DNA of 64,000 nucleotides, taken from NCBI RefSeq assembly GCF_036588685.1, contig NC_086381.1, positions 34,534,001 to 34,598,000 of the forward strand. Reading direction: 5' to 3'. The stretch is from Mytilus trossulus (Eukaryota). The notes under the pieces are model-generated. The model saw only the letters and a program-made list of their open reading frames with translations. It had not been told where the DNA came from and did not search any database. Below, piece after piece: positions 1,811-61,900 of this stretch; position 1 is the first letter of the stretch, and every line of letters starts with the position of its first letter. The position numbers and the translations under genes are program-made.

Positions 1811-2084
1811 GCACGGCTAATTCATAGCCCCATTGCTTTCTACCACTACAAGCATTCATAGCTACTTCGTCTCAAGTTGGAATAAATTCGCAATCATTTC
1901 ATTAAACTCAACCTGACTTTTGCTGAAACAAAATCAAAATACCTTTTAAAGGGGCACTAGCTGTCAAATTCATGTTCTCAGATTTGACTCAAATTTTCAT
2001 TTTTGATTTAGATAAACAATATAAAACATTAATCCAAATTATAAAAGTCTAACTGAATAAACAATCTACAGGACATGTGCTCAA

Positions 2085-2395
2085 TGGTTATCAAAGATAC
2101 CAGGATTATAATTTAGTACGCCAGACGTGCGTTTCGTCTACCTTAGACTCATCAGTGGCGCTCATATCAAAATATTTATAAAGCCAAACAAGTACAAAGT
2201 TGAAAAGCATTGAGGATCCAAAATTTCAAAACGTTGTGCCAAATACAGCTAAGGTAATCTATGCCTGGGATAAGAAAATACTTAGTTTTTCAAAAAATTC
2301 AAATTTTTGTAACCAGGAAATTTATAAAAAAAAATGACCACATTATTGATATTTATGTCAACACCGAAGTGTTGATTACTGGGCTGGTGATACCT
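2085..2395 (-). mobile_element. Hammerhead-containing short retroelement (retrozyme / Penelope pseudo-LTR-like), copy 1
   Basis: Homologous, in reverse orientation, to 62468-62787. Contains the hammerhead at 2119-2160. It interrupts a TTAA-AGGGGCACTAGCT MITE that begins at 1950. Confidence 0.75.
2119..2160 (-). ncRNA. Type I hammerhead ribozyme, intact core
   Basis: Minus strand reads CGCCA-CUGAUGA-GUCU(aaggu)AGAC-GAA-AC(gcac)GU-C-UGGCG. This gives a 5-bp stem I, 4-bp stem II, 2-bp stem III, canonical CUGAUGA and GAAA boxes, and a GUC cleavage triplet (cut between 2124 and 2123). Confidence 0.85.
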
Positions 2396-2659
2396 TATAA
2401 TGCGTAGTTTCTTTTCATGTGTGTCTTAATCTTGACGCCATCGTATTAACTGTCGAATTGACTTCCAAAGACCTCTGATTGTCATATATAGAGATATTAA
2501 TAGAAAGCCATGGGACTCGTGCAATTGGATTTTTCTAGGCCTGTTTGATTCCATAAAGATTAAATATGTGTGTTAATTATCGTTTTTACCTGTATAAAAA
2601 TCCTTTTTTGTGGATCGAATCAGTCAATCAAATGATTTGCCTCTGTTTAACTTGCAATA

Positions 2660-5600
2660 TGTTAACATTATTTTTCTTTTAATAACCGAACACGCATAAT
2701 GCATGCGTTATCCATCTCTAGGAAAGGGATCAAAAATGAATTTTAATACTCGAAGTAATGAGATACTGACACAAACAAAACCATCTTCAACATGCACTAT
2801 TCATTATGATTATCTTCCGATACTAATCCTGTTTGAGCGGATAATGAAAAAAAAAGATTAAGCCGGAATTAACATTTAAATGTCAGAGAAAAATATAACA
2901 AGCTTGAAAGTCAAGTTAATTAAATGTTGAAGTATATTTGCATAGCGGTATCAGAGAATATCAGGTTAATAATGTCAATTCGCCATATAAATATATTCCG
3001 ACGCTAGTTACTACTTTGTCTTGCAAATGATCTTTAAATTGACGTTTTATTTTGTTGTCAAAAAAGCTTATATTCAATTTTCTCTTTTTTAACTGAGCTT
3101 ATGTAGCCCCATAAGATTTATACACGATTTTAAAGTCAACTTATTTATATATAATATACTAAAGATGAAGTAATAAAATTGATTTATGACTGCAACAAAA
3201 ACAAATACGAGATTATATAGAGGTAATACAGAGACGATAGCTTTATTTTGGCATTCATCATAAGCCAAAAGAGCAAGTAATAAATCACTTGTTTCCAAAA
3301 AAAAAAAAAGAACTAACTAAATAAATTATACACAAGTTACTATCATTTCATGGACCTCATTAATATGGGATTGTAATTTATTTATATAGTATTCCAACAA
3401 TAACATTCCCTGTCGCTTTCATCTTCTTAAATTTGTAGGTGGTATGAGCTTATAAAAGTGGCTGCCAGCTTAAGTCTGATGTATGAGTAGGGTTTATTTG
3501 AATTCGTCTTCAAGCCGCAAAATATTTTATATACATATACCCATGGATTGTTTGAGACAACCAAGGTCATAAAATAGATACAATAACCACATACAGTTAC
3601 AAGCGTAAAATCAGACAGGGACTCACCCCCTTATACATATAATACAAAGCTAAAATTACAATCATTTATTTGTCAAAATATGGCATACTTACTCTTAATT
3701 TTCAGGGCTATCCCCCCTCCTACACACATAAAATCATAAGCCTACGCATGAAACCTGTAAGCGGTCTAAACTCAAGGCTATCCCCTCCTACACACACATA
3801 AAATCATAAGCCTACGCATGAAACCTGTAAGCGGTCTAAACTCAAGGCTATCCCCTCCTACACACACTTAAAATCATAAGCCTACGCATGAAACCTGTAA
3901 GCGGTCTAACCTGAACCATACTTTTTGACAGATTTTAAAACACCATCAACATGCAAAATAGTTAGCAATGGTACCAAAACAAACTCGTAAAGATCGTTTT
4001 TTGACACATAACCCACACTGCCTTATATTATTTTCTGAAAATAGGTTTCGCCTGACATATCTAGAAAATTTCATTTTGTAAGATTGTTTAAAAGGAATCT
4101 TGCGGAACGTTATGAAAAACAAGCAGCCACAGATTGAAGAAAGAACTATTCATCCTATTCTATAATAATAAATCTACCAGTTTATGGAGGAAAGAACATA
4201 TTTATGATGTATTGAAATGTCAGCCCAGGCTATACATGTAGGTGTCTATAATGATATTACAAGATCATGTAACTTTTGATTTAAAGTTCTTCTCGAAAAA
4301 AATCGATAAATTTATTTTTGGAAAGATAAATAATATAGTTACAGACTTTATCAGGAACATACTAAAAATGTCTGAATATTCGGCACTGATCGAACCATTT
4401 GACAAATTGATTTGTGTTCGAATAAACTTTAGATAACGAACTTAAACATGCTGGTAGTTTGGAATAAAGCGATGTTAAGTGCATGTTTTAAAGTAAACTA
4501 CGAATAATTTGTATCTAGCACTGAGGGCACAACTTACGTTTGTTAGGCAGATCTATATTATGTTCTATAGTTAATGTTTGTAAGCAATGTTGGATTTGAA
4601 AAAAAACCTGAAATTTTGAAAATGAGCATTAGTTGTTAAATGCATTTTCATTAATTTGACTCAAATTCTCTTATTTGATAAACAACATACTAAGACGTAT
4701 ATTCAAATGGCAAAAAAAATATAAAATGAACTATTTATGATGCATGGACTCGATAAATGTATTAACATGGCGTGTTTATGGTCTAGGCGCCATCTAACTA
4801 ACCACCGATATGCCATCTGTAGACTGGTAGCTAACGTACAACCCGATATAAACATAAACATAGATATAAATTCGGAGCGAACTCATGGAATTTGATTTTG
4901 TTCAGGTATGTTAGATTTCATACTAAAGGTTTGAAAAAAAAATATGTTAATAATCGTTTTTACCTGTATAAGAATGAGTGTTTGCTTTAATACTAATGTT
5001 GGCATTCTTTTCTTTTCAAGAGATAAAACACCTATTTAACGCGTAACCCATCTTTAGCTGAAATGTTCAATCTAAGTTGACATGAATACGGATTTAATGA
5101 AGACGAATTAATTACTTGCAAGTGATTAATTCATTAGTGATGTTTTCTTTGCTTATTTTGACAAAACCAAACAAAAGAGACTGCGAAAGTTAATTTTAAA
5201 TTCACAATTTCACTTTCACTAATGATTGAATAAAAGAAAATCATATTTTAATTTTTCTTGTCCATTTTATTGCATATATAAATATAGTTTTTTTCAATTC
5301 CGTAACTAATAAGTGTAAGGTAAGACACATGTCATGCATCCAGTTTAATCAGTACCCATTTTAAAGAAAGACGATTTTCATTTTACCAAATTTAAAATAT
5401 TCTAAAGGATAATGTGCGAGACCAGAGATTTTTCTTTAAAAAAAAGCTTTTAAAAAATATGAAAATTCGTTTAAGGCTGATATTGGTGACATAAGTTAAT
5501 TTTCTAATCTCATAATCAAAGTATTGATAAACTTTGTACAAAAGCCACTTTCTGAATAAATTTGCATGTCTAATATTTTATCACGATCAGAAACAAAATA

Positions 5601-12099: not shown

Positions 12100-12425
12100 A
12101 ATTATATTAATATACAACTTAATTTGTGTTCGAATAAAGTTAAAAGGGCAACATGTCTCCTAGTTTCATTTTTTGTAGCATTTTCGATAATGAAGCCCAA
12201 GTTATATATGCATGTGATGTGTCTTTGGGCTTATATTTATATTTGAACGATGAACGAGAACATGCTGTTGGTCTGGTTTAAAGCTTTTTTAAAATAAATA
12301 AATTCACTACAAATTTGAAGAGCATTGATGAGACAAAATCCAAGTTTGGAAAGCAGATTTAAATCATATTCTATTATAAATGATTGTAAGTAAAATTGGA
12401 CAAGAAATGGACCCTATCATTTTAA

Positions 12426-12951
12426 AGGGGCATTATCTGTCAAATTCTTGTTAACCGATTCAACTAAAGTTCTTATATTTTATATAATTAGTTATCAAAA
12501 GTACCAGGCTTATAATTTAATACGTAAGAAAATATATTAAGATGAACATCCAAAGTACAGAAAGTCTAGAACAAACAAAAACATGTTAAATGTGCTAACA
12601 TTTCGTGTTTATTTTAGTCTATTTGCTATTTAAATAACCATCATGATGACCTCCAAAGTTAGTCAACGATCTCATAACTCGATATAGACATAGACGTGAA
12701 TATGAATAGATAGCGAACTCGTGCAATTGAATCCTTCTATGTCGTTTAGATATCACTCCTGGATAGGTTTATAAATATGCTAATAATAGTTTTTGTTCAC
12801 TTCTAATTTTTCATTAGCGATGTTTCTTTTTTTATTTTGACAAAACTGAACCAAACTTGTTGCTAAATGCGAATTTTTATATCACTATTTCACCTTCATA
12901 GATGATTGGAAAACACACGTAATATGTGCTTGCTTTATTTCGTGTGTCCCT
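12426..12951. mobile_element. Kolobok-type non-autonomous element (TTAA TSD), old and co-duplicated with block A
   Basis: Ends are TTAA|AGGGGCA...TGTCCCT|TTAA. Relatives lie at 1950, ~4640, ~14380, ~22920 and 56649-59347. Confidence 0.6.
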
Positions 12952-14749
12952 TTAAATGCCCCCATAAAACCTATTTTTTTCAATTTCCTTAGTAATAAGT
13001 ATGAGATAAAACATTCTTTTTGAAGTAACATAAACATAATGCAATCACACACAATGTGATCTAACTGATACTTGTATACGTCCAATCATAATCATAAATT
13101 GACGTCATCCATTCAGATATCGTTTAAGTGAAACAGATAAAAAAACACATTTGCTAACAAAATGATAATACACAGACACAAAATAAAACTGCAATCGAAT
13201 GATTTTTCCAAATAACAAAACATTATTAATGTACAGTCTAAATAGGCCGAGTTTTGAAAAACATGTAAAAGCAAATTTTTCTTAATATCATATTTTGATC
13301 TTTAAATGTATTTGGATTCACTGTTGTTTATTTCTGAATTTATGAAACATACCAAACACGTAGTCAGACTTTTAAGTTTTCTGAAAATATATTATATTCG
13401 ATATATTAAGAAAATACCTCGTAAGATTCTTTATATATGGAATCTTGCGTAACGTTATAAGATATAAGAAGCCATAGATTGAAGAAAGAACTGTATATCA
13501 TATTCTATAAAAAAAATTCTACTTATTTATGGATGAATGATCAGATTTATGATGTATTGAAATGTCAGCCTAGGCTATACATGTAGGTGTATAAAATGAA
13601 TTTACAAGATCATGTTACTTTTGATTTAAAGTACTTTCTACAAAATTCAATAAACTGATTTTTGGACAGATAAACAATGTTGTTACATACTTTATCAGCA
13701 ACATACTAAAAATGTCTGAACTTTCGGCACTGATCGAACCATTTGATATATGGATTTGTGTTCGAATAGAGATAATTAGACAACAGATGTCACAGTTTCG
13801 GTGTTCTTATATTATACACAACAGGCCTTTTATTATATTAGCTTAACATTAAAAAAATTTGATCAGCTAAAATGTGATGAAAAATTTATATGGTTAATGT
13901 CCTCTGAAGATCATTATATATATGATCAATTATATACATTGATATACAACTTAAAGAATGAAAAGTTCAAATTGGTGAATACTTAAATTAAATAACTTCT
14001 CTTGTAATATATATGTTTCATTGCTATATGCATCTGTTTTCATGTTCCCTTTCCTATGCCATTTTATATCTATATTCATAACTTTATCAATATTGTACCA
14101 ACCCATATTGAATTTTGTGTTTTGTATAAGATATGCTTGTATTGGAATTTATATTTTAGCTCCATTCTGGGCGCTCATTGCAAAATAAAATAATTTGTAT
14201 TTGTACTTTCATTGTGTATTAAAACGATCAATGAGAACGTGCGTGGGGTTTGTTCAAAAGCTATGTTTAGTAAATGAATGAACGATGAATTTGAAGAGCA
14301 TTGAATACAATTGATCCATATCATGTTCTATTATTTATGTTTGTAAGCACGGGCTTGAAAAAATCCCCTCACATTTTAAAAGACGCATTAACCGTCAAAG
14401 TTATTTTTATAGATTTAACTCAAATTCACATTTTTGATATACAACGTACCAATACGTATATCCGAATTATGAAAAATTATTTAAATAAACAATTTCCGAT
14501 GCACGTACTCAATGAATGTATTAACATTTCTTATTCGTTTTAGTCTTGAAACCATCTAGTTAACCATCGATATGACATCCGAAGACTGTCGACGTTCATA
14601 TAACCAGATATAAACATGTAATAAATAGAGAACCAATTCATGGAATTTAAATTTCCTAGGTTTGTTGAATCTCACTCTTAATGTTTGAAAAATATGTTAA
14701 TAATCGTTTTTAACTGCAGTTTTAAAAATATCACAAAATCGAGTTGAGA

Positions 14750-21414: not shown

Positions 21415-24400
21415 AAAGAGGGATATGATCATTACACATTTCGAACAATAGACTTCTTTGGAATTCATCCGTCACGGTAAAAAAAACTCGTCAATTATGC
21501 ACGCCGTTTTGACGTAATTTAGTAGATAGAGGGAATCGCCTGTATCCCTGCACTATTACCGTTCAGTAAGCGTCTTAGTGATCGCCATTATGCAGGATAA
21601 ACTAGAAATAAATTGTTGGCCTACTGAAACTAGTAAACCGTTACAAAGTAAAAGTTAAATATGATTTTACACCTGTCTATGATCTTTTTAACTGAAAGGT
21701 AAAACATTATCTTACAAAGAATAGATAACCATTAAAAGGTGAACGTTTAATGAATATATTACTGAGAACACCCCATGACCTTACACAGTAAAAGGTCAAA
21801 GTTGAATTTATTAAGACCAGACCATGAACTTACAAACTGAACGATTTATCGCCAAAAATAGTGGCAATTTTCATTAAAATGACGAACGTGAAATGTAATC
21901 TAAAATAATAATTGTCAAAGCCAGTATATATTTTTCTCATATTAGGAACTTATTCAAATGAATGTCAGTTTTCAGACCAAAACTAATGATATTTATTTAT
22001 TGCGTACACAACTTTGGCTTTTTTTAAAATAGAAATGGTTTTCTTTTCCAGGAATAGATTACTTTAGCTGTATATGGCAAAAGCCTTCAACTTATTGATT
22101 CTGAAAGCACTTAAACTTTGTTCTCTGTGCAGGCATTTTAAAATTTTTGTGAAGATTGTATTTTAATCTATAAAGATTTTTTTATAGAGTGTAGTTTATT
22201 TGCTGTCTTTTGACATATAACACACACTGCGTTTTATTTTTCTGGGAGAAGTATTAATTTGACATAATCTAGAAAATTCTTATTCGCAAGATTCTTTAAA
22301 TGGAATCTTGCTTATGTTATACATTGTATTAAGCCATAAATCAAATAAACAACAATATATCATTTTCTATAATAATGAACTTATCTATGAAGAAAAGTAC
22401 AAATTCATGATGTATTATCAAAACGTCAGTCATTCTAGGCTATACCTGTAGGTGTATATAATGAGATTTCAAGATGTTGTTTGTAATATAAAGTTCTTCC
22501 AGAAAATATTCGTTAAACGTATTGTTGGATAGATAAACAATATTTATGACTTTATCAGAAACATATTTAAAAAACTTTTGGCACTGGTCGAACCATTTGA
22601 TAGATGGCTTTGTGTTCGAATAAAGATAATTAGACAACATGTCTTCTAGTTCTCCTTTTTTCAATTTGTGTAGCAAGTAGTGTTTGCACTTAATTGGTAT
22701 GTGGACATTAAGTGTAACAATTTACAACACAGTCCTATCGTTATGTTTAAACGATGAACGATAAAATGCTGGTGGTTTGTTAAAAGCTATGTCAAGTAAA
22801 TGAACAAAATACGAATTTGAAGAGCATTAAGATACAAATCATGTTTGTAAGGCAGATCTCTTATATGTTTTATAAAAAATGTTTGTAAGAAAAGTTTGAC
22901 TAGAAAAAAAAACTTTTAAAGGGGCATTGGCCGACATATTCATGTTCACCGATTTGATTGTTAAATTACTATTACACTTTCATAAATGATTGAGCAAAAA
23001 CAAATGGGATTTTTTTTCTTTCTCTTGTATCATTTAATTGCAGCCATAGAGAGATAGTTGTTTACAATTCCCTTACTAATACGCACATGTCGTATAACCA
23101 CTTTAATCAGTATCCATTTTAAAGAAAGACGACTTTCACCTGACCAAATCTAAAATTTTCAAAAGTATAATGTGTGATCCAGAGATTTTTTCGTTTTATA
23201 AAAAGCTTAGAATATATAAATATAATTCTTTTAAGACTGAAATTCGTAACATGAGGTTATTTTCCAAGCCTTATGATTGACCGAATGAATAAAGTCTGTA
23301 CGCAGGTCATCTTCTGAATAAATAATAAATAAATAAACTGATTGTTGGCATTTGAAAAAAAAGATTAATACTTTAAAACAACATGCATGGATTGGTGTTC
23401 TTTCTGAAATTTTACGGGAAAAGACTTTCTGAACATCCAAGTTCTAAAATTAAGGAAATGTATATGAATATAATATACTACTGGAATTTATAAAATTCAA
23501 TTGTTATATTTTCATAATTTATTCAAAATCATAATATTTTTAAGGTAGTCAGTATTGTGACATACTTTTTCAGCAACAAATTCATGATACAGATTGCATA
23601 ACATTAAAAATGTTGGAACATTCAAAAACTATGTTTATTGAAGGTACAATATATGACAGGGTTAGAGGTATAAAAAACCTCTTTATCTGTTTTTTTTAAA
23701 GATATTTTCATCAACAAATGAAGTGTCTTAACAAGGATGGTCAATATATGAAACATATTCAATATAGTGAAGAAAAAAAACCCTGTTGATTGTGTACTAT
23801 GTTTAAAACAACGGTTTTGTCACTGTGTTGCTTATCTAATGTAGAGGTGTAGTAGTTTTTATACCATAATAGGTAGCATAGACTATATCTATTGATAAAA
23901 TATCAACTTGCCTTCATGCCAAACCATTTTTGCATTGGATATTCTGTATTCATCATGCTTTCACCTAGAAAAAGGTCACATTCCCAGAAGAAATATGTTT
24001 ACATTATTAAAAGCTATCATTTAGTAATTATCTTCAAAAATAGATGTATACCATTAGACTAACTCCCTCATGAGTATAACTTAATATACTTAATGTGTAT
24101 GTTTATTTTGTATTTTGTTCGTTATGTTTTCACGACAAAGACAAAACAACAGCTGTAAATATTGTGCCTTTAAAAAAAGAGGAATGTGGTATTTGGTGCT
24201 AGTTAAAAAGAAGGATAGCAATAAACGATCAGAGTCCTGCCTTATTGGTTTATGTAGAACATTTATTTATACGATAACAAGCATCGCAAAACAAGATATG
24301 AGTTACTATACGTTAAGGGTTAATGATTTTTACCAAGGCACTTTCGAATTCTGTGGAAGGACCAAAGCCTGCTAGAGTTAAAACATTACTTTTAATATAC

Positions 24401-54780: not shown

Positions 54781-56781
54781 TACAAAAGTTCAAGTGAATG
54801 ATAATTTAATTTTTTTACGCTGTAAAAACCGATTGATTTTACGCTGAAAACTATTAAGGTTTATTGACGTCAATTAATAAACTTCATGATTGTTTTCTTG
54901 CAATAAGAGAATTGTCATCAGACAATAATTTAAACTGGAAAGACATTATGGTTAGCAATGCATGAATTAAGCAATGTTATGAACATGAAATATTATAAAC
55001 CTGTTACTGGGTACTTCATTTCACTTTCTACATACTATTTTCGGAGCAATTGTTTTTATTTTTTTAAATTTTATTTAAAACATAGGCATATTTACGAAAA
55101 CTTATATGATATGAGTTATGCTTTCCAACTTAGGCATCTTTCGGATCACATCCAACGAATATATAAAAAAAATAATTGTATATAAATAAAATATATTGTT
55201 TAGCTGCCATGGACAGCGAGACTTCGAAGGCTGTTGTCATAATGTTACGTCCATCGTCTGTCTGTTTGTCGTCTGTCCATTTGTCGTTAGTCGATACACA
55301 TTTATACAATATCAAATTGTATAACATATGCCATTAGATACAACCTTTGATTATGAAATGCTATTTAAAGATTCTCGTAAAATTTAAAACAATATGAATG
55401 ACATGAAAATGTACAAAGGACTTTCGTTTAATGTATTTCTTTTGTCAACCATGGTAGCATTGGTTGTTGATAGTTCCCAGAAAAAAAAACTTATTACATT
55501 TGCACCTTTGTTCTTTAAGAACTTGATATTTATATGAATTGTAGGCACATTTAATAGAAAAATATATATTCAATATAAAGTTACACTACCGGATTAAAAT
55601 CATTGACAGTGATTGACCATGTTTGTTATTCAGAACCTAAGTCATGAGATAAGGGAGCATCGCAAAAATAGAAGGTACTTTGTCTTGTTGAAATTAACAA
55701 CACTGATTAGATTATAAGTCAACGTAATACCTTGTTACCAATGCAATAACTCTGAACACATTAGTTATACAGATGTATATATATGCATCTTAAAAATGTA
55801 TGGTTGCAAAGTATTTGTGATTGCACTTTTTCGTCTGATTAACAAGACTTTATAAGCAACTTACATTATTTGGTTGTTTTGACTGTCTGTCTGTCTTTTC
55901 TTGTTATTGTGCCTTCAGATCATGATTATAAAATTATATATAAAAGGATTACACTTAAAACTGAAATGAGAATTTAATTGGTAGTGTCATCGTATCGTGA
56001 AACACGGAAGTTCAAAGTGTAAAACCATGCACACTTTCTAAAAATGCGAGTAACCAACTGCTTGTGTGTTTTATAACATATAAAAAGAAGATGTGGTATG
56101 ATTGCCAATGAGACAACTATCCACAAAAGACCAAAATGACACAGACATTAACAACTATAGGTCACCGTACGGCCTTCAACAATGAGAAAAGCCCATACCG
56201 CATAGTCAGCTATAAAAGGCCCCGATAAGACAATGTCAAACAATTCAAACGAGAAAACTAACGGCCTTATTTATGTAAAAAAAATTGAACGAAAAACAAA
56301 TATGTAACACATAAACAAACGACAACCACTGAATTTACAGGCTCCTGACATGTTCAGTTTCACGTAAAATAATGAACCAAAAGACAAAATCCAAACTTTT
56401 TAAATAAGGATAAAGATGAAAGTGTGTTAAGACACCTAATTAGTGTCCTAAAGTGAGGACAAAAAAAGCGATATATCCGAAAAATCTTCGTGAAAACCGC
56501 TCTATACAAAACCTTGTCCTAAAATGGTCTTAGGACACGACCTCATCCTAAGATAGCTTCAGGAATACCAGTAGGATATATATCATGTTCTATAATAAAA
56601 AAAAAAGTAATAAGCAAAGTGGGATTAGAAAAATCCTAACATTTTTAAAGGGGCTTTAGCTGTCATATTCATATTCTCTGATTTGACTCAAATTCTCATA
56701 TTTGATATAAATCATACTAATACGTATTTCCAAAATACAAAAAGTCTGAAATAACCAAAACCCGATGCATGGACTCGTTAA

Positions 56782-58928
56782 GGTGTAATACCACCAAATC
56801 ATGATACGCCACATCCGGTTGCATGTATGTTGGGTGTCTGAAAGCATCATTCTTTTTTTATTTGATGGTCTTATAAAATATTTTGGAAAGTTAAGGTTAC
56901 ATAGTTGCCAAAGCAGGTAACCAGTAAATAACCTGGTAAAAAATGTGATTGTTTACTTCCGGTGCAGGTTACTTTCTTATATGCAATGAAATGTAGTGTG
57001 AAATTTTCACTGTAGCACTGGAAAGGATTAAACTTTATTCATGCAAAGTATTTCTTTGGTTGAAATAAAGGTAAATTCTGTACAAATTTTTTAAAAGTAC
57101 CAATTTAACAAAGACTAATAGGGAAAAATCAATGGTGGTATTACACCTATTTAGGGAAACTACATGTGCACTCGTGACCTTATTGTACTTTCATTTTTAA
57201 AAGTTATTAATAAACCAGTTCATACATTGTAAACATGGACTATTCGGAATGGATTGAGACACAGAAAGCACGTTTGAGGTAAAATTGCCTTGAAATGGGG
57301 GTTTACGGGTGTTTTCTAAGTCAAATGGGTGGACAGACAAAGCTGTATTTAGTTTACTGTGTTAAATTTTAAATAATACCCTAACAGTTTTGTTTATACA
57401 ACATGTGAATTTTTTATTTCAGTGTTCACATGTTCTGAAGAGCATTCTGTTGAAAAATCTTATATGTGAATTGGTCTGCAGATGACACTTCAGCATTAAA
57501 GTAAGTATCAACTATCATCATGTTTTTTGTGTTTTTTTTGGCCGCAAAAGTTTACAATTTGCCATTGTGCCATCTACATTTTGCACAGACAATAAATCAT
57601 CTAAACACTTATTTGCCCTAGATTTATACACATCAGAATCCAGTCTCACATACTTAAACTTTATAATTCTTACCAATTTTTTTTGTACCAGCATTCCAAG
57701 GGACATAACCCTTTTTAAAAACATTTTGAGGTATTTTTTATTACTCTTTCTCCCCATTTTCTAATGTAAAATACAAGAAAGTGGACACTTTGTGTAAATC
57801 TATTAGAAATATACTGTTATGAGTAAATAAAAAGACTTTGATACCAGTAACAATAAATGGTTGACTGTAAGGGAACCGTTATTTGTCACACTAGGCGAAC
57901 AGACTAAAAACTCGAGTTACACATAAGGGCTTCTAGAAACTTCCGTGTAGACTGTTAACATTTATAGAGACAGTTCTTTCAGCTAAAACACTTTAATTAT
58001 TGATTTAACATTACATTTATATCATTTTTGTGGGGAAATAATCACATTTGTTTTATTTTTTAGACAAAAGATATCAAGTTTTGATGAAAAAGGAAGGAAG
58101 GAGGAAAAATGGACCAAAACAGACCAAAACAGACCTTCAAATGAACTCTAAAAGGTGCAATAAAATTGTTTATCATCTAAAAGTTGTCTTTTGTATTCTA
58201 TTTAATTGTTTGAATGCATAGATCATGAGTTTTTGATCAGATATTAGTCAACACTGCATTTTATAATGATACACTGAAATTTGGATTTGTCGAAGAAATT
58301 AGACTGAAATTGCCGTAGGATATGGCCTAACATTGCAGTGATTTTCTCTGAAACTATAGATCTGACTGAGACAAAACTTGGCAGTTATATAATTATGCTT
58401 GAAATAACTTGCAATTGGAGGGAAAAAAATAACATTAAGTTTATTTGACATTTAGGTGTTCTTTAGGTGTAATACCACCAAATCATGATACGCCACATCC
58501 GGTTGCATACGAAAGTAGGTCAAAAAAAATATTCCCTTGAATTTGACAGTTGTAGAAAATTAACCCTGCATTTCAATGCATTTAATTTTTTCTGAGTCAT
58601 AAACATGTATGTTGGGTGTCTGAAAGCATCATTCTTTTTTTATTTGATGGTCTTATAAAATATTTTGGAAAGTTAAGGTTACATAGTTGCCAAAGCAGGT
58701 AACCAGTAAATAACCTGGTAAAAATGTGATTGTTTACTTCCGGTGCAGGTTACTTTCTTATATGCAATGAAATGTAGTGTGAAATTTTCACTGTAGCACT
58801 GGAAAGGATTAAACTTTATTCATGCAAAGTATTTCTTTGGTTGAAATAAAGGTAAATTCTGTACAAATTTTTTAAAAGTACCAATTTAACAAAGACTAAT
58901 AGGGAAAAATCAATGGTGGTATTACACC
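56782..58928 (-). mobile_element. KolobokP-like composite DNA transposon, internally deleted
   Basis: TTAA lies at 56778-56781 and 58929-58932. Long direct repeats span 56782-57147 and 58466-58928, each bounded by perfect 15-bp TIRs GGTGTAATACCACCA/TGGTGGTATTACACC. The 1318-bp interior has an ORF remnant on the minus strand. It is nested in the older Kolobok-type MITE at 56649-59347. Confidence 0.9.
57400..57757 (-). pseudogene. Frameshifted N-terminus of the composite element's protein (putative transposase)
   Basis: Mosaic frames read MGRKSNKK / FKKGYVPWNAG / YVRLDSDVYKSR...CKLLRPKK / TYKIFQQNALQNM. No catalytic domain remains. Confidence 0.55.
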
Positions 58929-61900
58929 TTAATAGCATTAGTATTTCAAGTTTTTTTAGTCTAGACGCCATCTTATTAACCATTGAGATGATCTACGACG
59001 ACTGTTGACGGTCATATTACCCGATATTTTACATAAACAATGATATAAATAGAGCACGAATTCGTCGAAATGATTTTTCTAAGTCTGTTTGATTTCATAA
59101 AATAGGTTAAAAGAAATATGGTAATACACGTTTTTATCTGCATAAGAATGATTTTTTGTTTAACTTCTATTCTTTACTTTTCGAAAGCTGAACACGCCTA
59201 GTTGATGCGTAACTCATCTCTAACTGAAGGGTTCAATAGAAGTTCACATGAATACGGATTCAATGAGGTTAGTATAATTATTATATCACTATTTCACTGA
59301 TTGAACCAAAACAAATCATATTTCTGTTTTTTATCTCATATGTCCCTTTAATTGCAGTAATAAAAGATAATTATTGTTATTTCCCTTGCAAATAAGTATG
59401 AGGCACATATTATACAGCCAGTTGAATTAGTACCCATGTTAAAGAAAAACGATTTTCAATTACCGAATCTAATATATTCAAAAGAAGAATGTGCGATTTC
59501 AGAGATTTTTCGTTTTATAGAAAGCTTTAAATACAAGGTAAGAATTCTTTTGAAAGTGAAATTCGTGACATGAGATAAATTTCTTAGACGTATTACTCAA
59601 TTTATTTCACTTGACTGGGCGCAGCTTAACCGGTTCGCTCATAATAAACCTGTCCATTTATACATAGGTGTTTTAAAATAAATTCATCAATAAAGTGTCC
59701 AGTCATTCATTTGTAAATTCATTTGGTGACACTGATATGTGATTAGAAATCAGTTATAATTATAACGGCAATCATCCTTATCACACACATCTTCAAATAG
59801 ACTGTTCTTATGCAAATTAAAACGTAAGCGCCGCCTGATCAGTTGAAATAACATTGGTAAAATGATCGACGTATTAATAAATGCCAGTTTCTGAATAAAT
59901 TTACTCGTGTAACATGTAGTAACCATCAGAAACAAAATAATGCAACGATAAACAGATTTGATAAGTTTGTATATGCAAATTGATAAATACTTCAAAGGCG
60001 CGGATTGGTGTTCTGTCTTAAATATTATTTGAAAAGATGATCAGAATATGAAGTTGTAACAATGTGGAAATATATATGTCTTTTCCTCTCGAATATCATA
60101 CCTAAATATAAGAAATTGGATTCAACATACCAGGCTTAAGAACATTTTTTTTTTCATAAATTATTCATAGAGTAACAGTAGTGTTACAGCATGCATACCA
60201 TGTGATATTTTTGCACACTCTGCACTGTTCGAACCATTTGATATATGGATATGTCACATTTGAGATAGTAAAGAAAAAAATCTCCATGCTTTTTAAATTT
60301 TTGTAGCATATTTAGGAACAAAGTCCAAATAAAGATGGGTCTTTTTGTAGTTGTATATATTATAAAAAATATTTGTAATTTATGTAATAAATCTATGAAT
60401 AATACAACAATATATATAGGAAACTTTATATGCAAAATTAAGAAAAAAGAAGATTTTTTTTTGTACAAGTGAGTTTAATTCATGTTGTCACTGTATAGGT
60501 TATAAAAAAGGTTTAAGTATTCAATCATGCATTTTTGAAATAATGCATTAAATATGCATGACGAATCACAATAATCCATCAACTTATAAATATTTGGGTT
60601 TAAGTATGAAAAGGAGAATAAATAATTAATAAGATAATTTGTATAATTTATACATTTTTTTTAGTGTAATTGATATAAATAATCTTATGACTATCATAAG
60701 ACAATCCTAAGACACCTCTCGTGTAGTCTTAACTTTATGACAAACTTAAAGAGATTTTCTAAACTAAGACCACTTTGTTAAATCCACTTAAGATATGTCG
60801 AAATACCATCCGAAGACAGCTTCGTGAAACTGGCCCAAGAACTATGTATGTTGATGTTGAGACGATGAACAAGCATATGTAGATGGTTTAGTTAAAAAAA
60901 AATATTCTGAGAATAGGTACAGTATGTGGCAGTGATAAATGTGTCCTTCATGAGCGGGGTCATTTTCAACTTGATATATTTTTGATGATACTGATAGTAT
61001 GTAGTAATATAGCTGTTTTTTTGGTAGCACAGTTAACCTAGGAAAAAAAAACAACATACACTTTAGTAATTGCACCTGCATTGCTTTAATCATAAGTACT
61101 ATTTAGTACTACGTTCAACCAGCTAAACCAATACCCACTTTAAGGAAATACATATTGTGTTTGAATTTACAGCAGAGGCTTTATTTCGTTTTATGGAAAG
61201 CTTCAATTAAAGAATTAAAATTTGTGTCAAGGCTCCGATTCGTGATGTGAGGTAATTTTACTTGCCTTATGATCAACGTATTAACAAAACTACTTAAAAA
61301 ATCAAAGAAAAACTCGTTGCAAAGCCATGTTATAAACTAACATATCTACCATGTAGTCACGAGCAGATACAAACTAATGTCACTATGTGTTTTGTTCGTT
61401 ATGTTTGGACGACAGAGAAAAAACCGCTGTAAAAAAATGTGCCTTAGAAGTTTGAAATAGTGGTGTTAGTTAAAAAGAATGATTGCAACGGTGAGGGACC
61501 TGCAATATTGATTTTTGAATAAGATTTATTTTTTATGAAAAACAAGAATTGCAAACAAAGTTATGTTATGAGTTACCATACTTTTGAGGGTGAACAATTC
61601 TTACCAAGTCACCTTTGAATTTAGTCGAAGGTCCGAAGCCAAAATGTAAATCTAAAACATAGTCCACATTTGCTTAAGATAATTTTGCCTGCTGGAGTTG
61701 ACATATTACATTTATTACAATTTTATTTATTTTGAAACATTTAGAACATAAAAGCAGAAGATATCAAAGGAATAGTCAATCTCTTTATTTCGAGTGGTAT
61801 CTTCCAAAAAACGCCTTCACCCTCATCATTGTGGTTCGTAAACTGATGTTTGTCTTTTGATTTTTTGTATGTTGGTCATGACCGTGAAGAACGTCACATG

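What the first reader, a model, noticed from the sequence alone, without database searches (positions are those of the whole stretch)
56782..58928. Eukaryotic composite transposon: two TIR-bounded direct repeats moving together as one unit
Seen: TTAA occurs only at the two outer ends (inner junctions are TATT and TTTA), and the host MITE is continuous across the outer TTAA. The whole 2147-bp unit therefore inserted as one event. The LDRs appear identical except for a 98-bp deletion at CAT microhomology and one A. Known: this matches the KolobokP architecture (DDE transposase plus His-Me finger nuclease, LDRs, solo LDRs). Inference: it is a recently mobile non-autonomous derivative retaining only the protein N-terminus, nested in another Kolobok-type element.
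Basis: partly seen in the sequence, partly recalled or inferred. Interest (0 to 1): 0.7.

Follow-up and report, generated by a model that had tools for sequence, protein, structure and literature searches.

The report
Defective KolobokP transposon with swapped ends
This is a gene-broken, likely young copy of an already described kind of animal DNA transposon (KolobokP), and its subfamily carries the interior of one lineage between the end repeats of another, which suggests that these elements likely re-make both end repeats from one template, a step that is still untested.

Summary
Confirmed and mostly ordinary. 56782-58928 is a non-autonomous KolobokP monomer: two 463-bp direct repeats (LTDRs; 15-bp inverted tips, GG..CC; left copy lacks 98 bp) around a 1.3-kb interior. 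The interior is the 5' ends of two tail-to-tail genes fused by deletion: a His-Me homing-type nuclease (intact in a sister subfamily) and a DDE transposase (broken full-length relative elsewhere). The genome holds monomers, solo repeats, dimers and a 132-kb, 78-unit array. TTAA is not special: 42 of 56 two-ended insertions have a 3-5-bp T..A duplication, and only 3 of 35 four-base ones are TTAA. Two points are not in the 2022 paper's main text. The two repeats of one copy share their mutations (10 private changes on both sides, 10 on one side, in 12 young copies). The window's subfamily is a chimera: its interior comes from the deleted lineage (82 vs 6 sites), both repeats from the nuclease-intact lineage (17 vs 1). 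No intact transposase of this family was found in the assembly.

The parts
56778..56781 (.). Left target-site duplication TTAA
56782..57147 (.). Left LTDR, 366 bp (98-bp deletion at CAT 56822-56824, one extra A); 15-bp inverted tips 56782-56796 and 57133-57147. It is the 3' LTDR in the paper's orientation (transposase strand).
57148..58465 (.). Interior (INT), 1318 bp; 98-99% identical to other young copies (1309-1312 bp as a rule)
57235..57369 (+). 5' remnant of the His-Me (His-Cys box) nuclease gene, 45 codons from ATG with a stop at 57280-57282; catalytic part deleted
   Evidence: intact sister protein P0001 matches PF05551 and I-PpoI
57357..57369 (.). Deletion joint (13-bp imperfect overlap) where 388 bp of the nuclease-intact sister interior were lost
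57357..57757 (-). Frameshifted 5' remnant of the DDE transposase gene (about 125 codons from the likely ATG at 57757); no catalytic residues
   Evidence: (62-64% aa to P0004, E 1e-20; 85% nt to L105)
57758..58465 (-). Non-coding interior upstream of the transposase remnant (promoter or leader likely; untested)
   Evidence: 85% nt to L105 over 57357-58068; 92% to L078 over 57357-58928
58466..58928 (.). Right LTDR, 463 bp, GG..CC termini, 15-bp inverted tips
58929..58932 (.). Right target-site duplication TTAA
56650..56777 (+). 5' part of the older host repeat (begins after TTAA at 56646-56649)
58933..59420 (+). Continuation of the host repeat (62-78% identity to other copies; its 3' tip was not located)

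Best explanation
This is a non-autonomous KolobokP DNA transposon, two long direct repeats with their own inverted tips around a deleted transposase-plus-nuclease interior, that was likely cut and inserted as one unit by a transposase made elsewhere. Shown: the anatomy, the two fused gene remnants, the T..A target duplications, the solo, dimer and array forms, the shared mutations between the two repeats of a copy, and the mismatch between interior and repeat ancestry. Inferred history: a full-length element (about 4.6 kb, estimated from L105) lost about 2 kb of transposase, giving a nuclease-only subfamily (H, about 2.63 kb). Loss of a further 388 bp gave the gene-less N interior. One N interior then acquired H-type repeats at both ends and spread at the same time as H (both about 1% diverged). 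Inferred mechanism, to which I commit at about 55%: both repeats are reset from a single template around the time a copy is mobilised, most likely through a one-repeat LTDR-INT unit (circle or head-to-tail concatemer) from which the transposase cuts repeat-to-repeat pieces; after insertion the two repeats age independently, as this copy's one-sided 98-bp deletion shows.
For: Anatomy. Interior always beside repeats or other interiors in the loci examined. Nuclease: P0001 PF05551 E 7.5e-13, I-PpoI E 0.002-0.003; 8 of 15 H-type starts translated give a full 124-aa frame, 7 of them with the catalytic Asn. Transposase: L105 pieces match PF20700 (E 6.5e-29, 5.5e-16) and lie tail-to-tail with the nuclease; by eye 44 of 71 residues match KolobokP-1_BaPl across the zinc finger and second Asp. 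Target sites: 35 four-base, 4 five-base and 3 three-base duplications, 14 none, of 56 two-ended insertions; all 42 begin with T and end with A. Solos: 20 of 20 unpaired repeats fetched had no interior nearby. Pair identity: over 31 elements, 49 private and 22 shared variants are on both repeats, against 4 shared on one side only; pairs group as sisters in the tree wherever they carry changes of their own. One-sided changes are spread evenly, not piled at the outer tips (mean position 245 vs 243, p 0.44), as expected from whole-repeat resetting rather than repeated crossover. Swap: 82 vs 6 interior sites and 1 vs 17 repeat sites, Fisher p 9e-14; rooted trees place the young interior inside the old N lineage and the young repeat inside the H lineage, AU p 1e-10 and 0.005. 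A likely empty allele of this site is joined in one contig of run X2.
Against: No intact transposase of this family was found: the only close copy (L105) is frameshifted and lacks one repeat, the next (50-60% aa) are broken, and open frames belong to other families at 30-38% aa (150 of 263 candidates scored). So the mobilising enzyme is assumed. 14 of 56 two-ended insertions have no 3-5-bp duplication. 102 private variants are one-sided and 8 are mixed, and two of the three dimers with differing repeats have a middle repeat that fits simple unequal crossover after insertion, while the third is a patchwork; conversion or crossover in place therefore happens too and could account for pair identity alone. 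The AU groups were defined from the same sequences before the trees, so the p values are not fully independent. Groups are small (12 young, 5-6 H, 12-13 old) and drawn from best hits. No contig bridged either end of this insertion by the tool's 31-base rule.
Confidence: 0.92

Rival explanations
1. Same element, but the two repeats are homogenised in place after insertion by gene conversion or unequal crossover (possibly induced by the nuclease, as Kojima and Bao propose), and the swap was a single ectopic conversion between an H and an N copy. No special intermediate is needed.
For: Multimers and a 78-unit array with near-identical units exist. The middle repeats of the C19 and C10 dimers carry the left repeat's 3' variant, as unequal crossover predicts. 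8 mixed variants in old copies. Intact nuclease frames exist in H copies of the same age.
Against: One-sided variants show no excess at outer tips. The ancestry switch maps within 37 bp of one repeat-interior border and within about 126 bp of the other although H and N interiors are about 90% alike and could carry a tract further. Old pairs keep up to 17 differences, so conversion in place is not fast.
Confidence: 0.4
2. At this locus a solo repeat inserted first and made the TTAA duplication; an LTDR-INT circle recombined into it later (model 5b1 of the paper), so the unit did not insert as one piece.
For: Solo repeats with their own duplications are common. The outer duplication cannot tell the two orders apart. 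The swap shows that interiors and repeats can change partners.
Against: Such recombination gives hybrid repeats; here the two repeats share the variants T401A and T402A and have no substitution between them, and both interior and repeat group with the same sister copy on C15. The only alternative allele seen is the empty site, not a solo (one contig).
Confidence: 0.1
3. Two independent MITE insertions that happen to flank 1.3 kb of host DNA.
For: Each repeat has its own inverted tips and occurs alone elsewhere.
Against: The same interior lies between the repeats at dozens of loci, consists of transposase and nuclease remnants, and the inner junctions carry no matching duplications.
Confidence: 0.005
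4. A miniature LTR retroelement (TRIM) whose LTRs are copied by reverse transcription, which would explain pair identity, solos and tandems.
For: Direct repeats, solos, tandem arrays and identical pairs look like LTR elements.
Against: Termini are GG..CC with 15-bp inverted tips, not TG..CA; the interior derives from a DDE transposase and a His-Me nuclease; precise repeat loss leaves INT-INT joints. Primer-binding site and polypurine tract were not tested.
Confidence: 0.01
5. Assembly artefact: collapsed or polished repeats make the pairs identical and inflate the array.
For: The C6 array contains one 100-N gap. No laid contig spans the element.
Against: The two repeats here differ by a 98-bp deletion; pairs elsewhere carry one-sided changes; array units carry patterned variants, two joint types, an inversion and a private insertion. 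Exact-match contigs of the young interior are far deeper than flank contigs in four runs (the tool warns that depth is no copy number).
Confidence: 0.03

Closest known systems
KolobokP lineage of Kolobok DNA transposons (Kojima and Bao 2022, PMC9587614), non-autonomous families such as KolobokP-4N1_CorFlu and KolobokP-N5_CGi
   Same: LTDR-INT-LTDR, repeat length in the ~450-bp class, short inverted tips, RR..YY ends, 3-5-bp duplications, solos, multimers, INT-INT joints, one-repeat forms, transposase and nuclease tail-to-tail.
   Different: This family's tip sequence is absent from the four supplementary files as held (file 4 is cut). The paper's main text does not report shared mutations between paired repeats, exchange of repeats between subfamilies, or an inverted monomer in an array (parts 1-5 read; word search). 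INT-INT joints here lose 6 or 2 bp, the paper says 3 or 4.
KolobokP-1_BaPl (transposase) and KolobokP-1_PaGe (repeat start)
   Same: BaPl transposase matches the L105 pieces by eye at 44 of 71 residues in the core; the PaGe repeat begins almost as our repeat does on the minus strand.
   Different: Different families: repeats of 470 and 471 bp with other inner sequence. Only 1 of about 30 parts of the protein alignment was read, so a nearer listed family may exist.
KolobokP-H1_MyEd (2,664 bp, Table S1)
   Same: Similar size to the nuclease-only sister subfamily here (about 2,630 bp); that it is nuclease-only is my reading of its name.
   Different: Unrelated repeat sequence.
Bacterial composite and IS26 pseudo-compound transposons (as described in PMC9587614)
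   Same: Two mobile ends move an interior; a one-end-plus-interior 'translocatable unit' is the model for the proposed intermediate.
   Different: Here the enzyme genes lie in the interior and the ends are non-coding.
LTR retrotransposons / TRIMs
   Same: Paired repeats start alike and then diverge; solos and tandems occur.
   Different: No reverse transcriptase descent, inverted tips, GG..CC ends, DDE transposase of the Kolobok type.

Membership tests
KolobokP | Interior flanked by two long direct repeats of about 450 or 660 bp | tested here: met
   463 bp
KolobokP | Each repeat has its own short inverted tips | tested here: met
   15 bp perfect
KolobokP | 5'-RR..YY-3' termini | tested here: met
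   GG..CC
KolobokP | 3-5-bp target duplications without strict sequence | tested here: met
   42 of 56 two-ended insertions; all T..A; 35 are 4 bp
KolobokP | Interior derived from a DDD/E transposase gene (whole in autonomous, deleted in non-autonomous families) | tested here: met
   5' remnant in the window; catalytic region only in the broken relative L105, PF20700
KolobokP | His-Me finger nuclease downstream on the opposite strand | tested here: met
   Remnant in the window; whole in H copies; tail-to-tail in L105
KolobokP | Solo repeats, (LTDR-INT)n multimers and INT-INT joints | tested here: met
KolobokP | Transposase falls inside the KolobokP clade in a tree | not tested
   Published proteins were not available to the tools; by-eye comparison with KolobokP-1_BaPl only
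One of the 228 named KolobokP families | Repeat sequence present in the paper's Data S1 | tested here: not met
   0 hits for four 14-17-base terms; 8 of 9 hits of a shorter start motif seen, none at a repeat start. Later Repbase entries could not be checked.
Canonical Kolobok (Kol0) | TTAA-specific target duplication | tested here: not met
   3 of 35 four-base duplications are TTAA
LTR retroelement / TRIM | TG..CA termini and retroelement-derived interior | tested here: not met
LTR retroelement / TRIM | Primer-binding site and polypurine tract | not tested
   Not examined
Host repeat as Kolobok-type MITE | TTAA duplication with RR..YY inverted ends | tested here: inconclusive
   5' end TTAA then AG in the window and most homologues; a matching reverse end in L195, L198, L140; the window copy's 3' tip not found; no transposase link tested

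The most novel reading that the evidence does not exclude
KolobokP is a DNA transposon that regenerates both long end repeats from one template at each round of spread, LTR-style but without reverse transcription: a single repeat plus interior is amplified head-to-tail and the transposase cuts daughters from the concatemer. Repeats and interiors are therefore exchangeable modules, and a dead interior can take over the ends of the currently active lineage, as the window's subfamily did.
Probability: 0.35. Interest if true: 0.7.

Novelty: new member of a known kind. Interest (0 to 1): 0.42.

Why it matters
The element itself is one more non-autonomous family of a lineage described in 2022. Its value is as test material for that paper's open question, how the two-repeat structure is kept and what the homing-type nuclease does. 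This genome holds three subfamilies with diagnostic variants, intact nuclease genes of the same age as the young wave, an exchange of both end repeats with borders close to the inverted tips, and a 132-kb array with excision footprints and an inversion. These allow direct tests of copying from one template versus conversion in place, and they show a transposon turning into satellite-sized tandem DNA.

Tried and rejected
Search for an intact parent: DNA search with the L105 transposase core found only decayed pieces on C3, C9 and C14; protein search found long open frames only in other families, at 30-38% aa. BLASTP of the window's 79-aa minus-strand ORF against the intact transposase of another family was not significant (E 1.2); the assignment rests on L105. 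TTAA specificity: rejected. Outer-tip excess of one-sided variants, predicted by crossover-driven homogenisation: not seen. 'Scraps of interior' outside the outer repeat (lead from e1-9938817): 3 of 56 right flanks begin with the interior's first six bases (L161, L180, C5:4.20); only L180 has a duplication enclosing the scrap; too few to support the claim. Reads: all runs offered were short contigs; none spans the element; the X1 contig over the right end has only 23 bases inside the repeat, under the 31 needed, and X1 may be the source sample. A repeat-to-repeat joint skipping the interior in one X1 contig may be a genomic tandem like L116 and is not evidence of a circle. The first multiple alignment misplaced the window's deletion (27 false differences); pairwise projection corrected it to 0. 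Five loci with a missing or uncaptured end were left out of the duplication count (C4:47.36, C6:84.43, C5:3.27, C4:41.66, C1:7.89). Three of 24 unpaired repeat hits and the 43 unlisted junction hits were not followed as such. Look-ups of earlier findings for look-alike stretches and for a swap returned nothing. No structure was predicted.

Full report
1. Observation. The unit spans 56782-58928 (2147 bp). The left repeat (56782-57147, 366 bp) and right repeat (58466-58928, 463 bp) differ only by a 98-bp deletion at a CAT microhomology and one extra A on the left. Each has perfect 15-bp inverted tips with GG..CC ends. TTAA flanks the outer ends; the inner joints read TATT and TTTA. The flanks belong to an older repeat (62-80% identity between copies) that is co-linear across the site in 10 of 11 homologues examined. 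One contig of run X2 joins 56780 to 58959 through 30 letters that resemble this locus's own right flank, a likely empty allele (one contig, depth 6.9).

2. The family. The repeat and interior recur genome-wide; the 22-base repeat-to-interior joint has 143 exact matches against 0 for the control (first 100 listed). I fetched 31 isolated places from that list plus array ends, nuclease hits, four further copies and 20 of 23 unseen unpaired repeats. They fall into a young subfamily with a 1.31-kb interior (the window's), older copies with the same interior and deletion joint (old N), and copies with a 1.71-kb interior (H). All 20 unpaired repeats are solos. Of 56 insertions with both ends, 35 have a 4-bp, 4 a 5-bp and 3 a 3-bp duplication and 14 none; all 42 start with T and end with A; 3 of the 35 are TTAA. 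Dimers, a hexamer, LTDR-INT-INT-LTDR and one-repeat forms occur.

3. The interior. H copies carry a 124-aa frame matching PF05551 (E 7.5e-13) and I-PpoI (E 0.002-0.003); 8 of 15 H-type starts translated are whole, 7 with the catalytic Asn (the window's row not counted). The window keeps its first 45 codons with a stop (79% aa over 52 residues). L105 (C8:21.41 Mb) is a decayed longer relative: one repeat at 89%, the nuclease, and on the opposite strand a frameshifted transposase whose pieces match PF20700. The window matches it at 85% nt on both sides of a joint at 57357-57369 and keeps about 125 codons of the transposase 5' end on the minus strand. So the interior is two gene starts fused after two deletions (about 2 kb, then 388 bp). 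No intact transposase of this family was found. The mobilising enzyme is therefore inferred.

4. Paired repeats evolve together. In a tree of 74 repeats the two repeats of an element group as sisters wherever they carry changes of their own. Projected on one reference, 31 elements show 49 private and 22 shared variants on both repeats, 102 private on one side, 4 shared on one side only and 8 mixed; in the 12 young elements, 10 private variants are two-sided and 10 one-sided. Plain cut-and-paste of two independent repeats predicts left and right lineages and no private two-sided changes (inference). One-sided changes are spread evenly (p 0.44), which does not favour crossover-driven homogenisation, but two dimers have middle repeats that fit unequal crossover. 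I therefore put reset at mobilisation at about 55% and homogenisation in place at about 40%.

5. The window's subfamily is a chimera. At sites where the three majority sequences differ, the young interior sides with old N at 82 sites and with H at 6; the young repeat sides with H at 17 and with old N at 1 (Fisher p 9e-14). Mean distances: young to old N 4.5% (interior) and 7.2% (repeat); young to H 8.3% and 2.2%. With L105 as root and 20 of the copies, the young interior nests in old N (sister to C2:86.70, 100/98) and the young repeat nests in H (98/92); holding young with old N in the repeat tree is rejected at p-AU 0.005, and young with H in the interior tree at 1e-10. The switch lies between interior position 1693 of 1707 and repeat position 23 on one side, and between repeat position 355 and interior position 18 on the other. 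Both repeats were replaced, close to the inverted tips. Young and H copies are each about 1% diverged, so they likely spread together.

6. Array. C6:34,527,045-34,658,802 (131.8 kb) holds 78 interiors and 60 repeats, units 0-3 substitutions from a reference unit, 18 INT-INT joints (15 losing 6 bp, 3 losing 2 bp), one inverted LTDR-INT-LTDR with 4 and 3 bp lost at its joints, a 1,794-bp insertion in one repeat, no repeat at the right end, and one 100-N gap.

7. Comparison with what is known. PMC9587614: I read parts 1-5 of 6 of the main text (the rest is references), part 1 of 2 of Table S1, part 79 of 106 of supplement 3 and passages from supplement searches; supplement 4 is cut as held and Figures S2-S5 were not read, so array sizes or pair identities shown there could bear on my novelty claims. 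The paper defines KolobokP by exactly this architecture and reports solos, multimers, INT-INT joints and non-autonomous families of 1.5-3.7 kb; it leaves open how the composite form is kept. Its main text has no 'homogen', 'recombinant' or 'chimer'. Our tip sequence is not in the supplements. PMC13565253 (one passage) says the nuclease model awaits confirmation. PMC8268682 (one table passage) lists two 2,414-bp oyster satellites classed as Kolobok, so Kolobok-derived tandem DNA has been seen before. Searches: 'KolobokP' gave 2 papers; searches gave no further paper on this lineage (listings only for the others). The library lacks most subscription journals and Repbase. The organism is likely a mytilid mussel; this rests on genome size, the nearest listed family seen and earlier notes of the scan, not on a label.

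8. Earlier notes of the scan (unchecked AI notes). Several KolobokP copies were filed before, one in this genome with a different repeat length. Note e1-9938817 reports repeat re-copying and cutting from arrays in another genome. I had measured pair identity before reading it; my novel case reuses its array-cutting reading; its 'interior scraps' claim gets only weak support here (3 of 56).

9. Verdict. A real, correctly read, non-autonomous KolobokP copy of an unlisted family: new member of a known kind. The chimeric ancestry and paired-repeat data add a testable handle on the unresolved mechanism. Interest 0.42.

Noticed in passing
G000:C6:34527045-34658802 (L142-L155): 132-kb tandem array of this subfamily: 78 interiors, 60 repeats, 18 INT-INT joints of two footprint types, one inverted monomer, right end without repeat, one scaffold gap.
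   Followed up: yes
G000:C6:34629108-34630901 (L152): 1,794-bp insertion inside one array repeat, CCC..GGG ends with about 44-bp imperfect inverted repeats, TA on both sides, no long frame; family not identified.
   Followed up: partly
G000:C11:15.71 Mb (L111): Apparently intact autonomous KolobokP of another family: 468-bp repeats, TTAA duplication, 670-aa transposase frame, nuclease opposite.
   Followed up: partly
G000:C4:92.10-92.14 Mb (L112, L113, L117): Array of that second family with a 3,623-bp period in which only 161 bp of each repeat remain, preceded by at least eight 441-bp tandem copies of other sequence.
   Followed up: partly
G000:C8:72.90-73.12 Mb; also C1:22.31-22.38 Mb, C48, C303: Long head-to-tail arrays (over 50 units at about 3.6-kb spacing on C8, with strand switches) of other transposase families with open frames of 591-716 aa.
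   Followed up: no
G000:C11:11.81 Mb (L107): Related KolobokP copy (468-bp repeats with similar tips, intact-looking nuclease at 47% aa, broken transposase with an internal 1.4-kb duplication) that resembles KolobokP-1_BaPl by eye.
   Followed up: partly
G000:C5:4.20 Mb (L116): Divergent copy (81%) with the layout LTDR-6 bp-LTDR-INT-LTDR and a shorter interior.
   Followed up: partly
L180 (C14:70.97 Mb), L161 (C18), L116: Right flank begins with the first six bases of the interior; in L180 a TTAA duplication encloses the repeat plus three extra bases.
   Followed up: partly
window about 58385: 8 bases present in this copy's interior and absent from one contig laid; the interior is 1318 bp against 1309-1312 in most sisters.
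   Followed up: no
window 1944-2611, 4615-5342, 12420-13005, 14372-14718, 22914-23081: Five further old copies or pieces of the host repeat in the window.
   Followed up: no
window 56071-56350, 56387-56570 and 59500-59950: Other repeats beside the element: a very high-copy ~270-bp repeat with six more pieces in the window, a ~190-bp repeat with at least 30 copies at 72-77%, and pieces of a third.
   Followed up: no
L087 (C7:59.43 Mb), L105: A copy of this family interrupted by a ~3.9-kb insertion with open frames of 281 and 336 aa; L105 lacks its other repeat and lies beside reverse-transcriptase-like frames.
   Followed up: no
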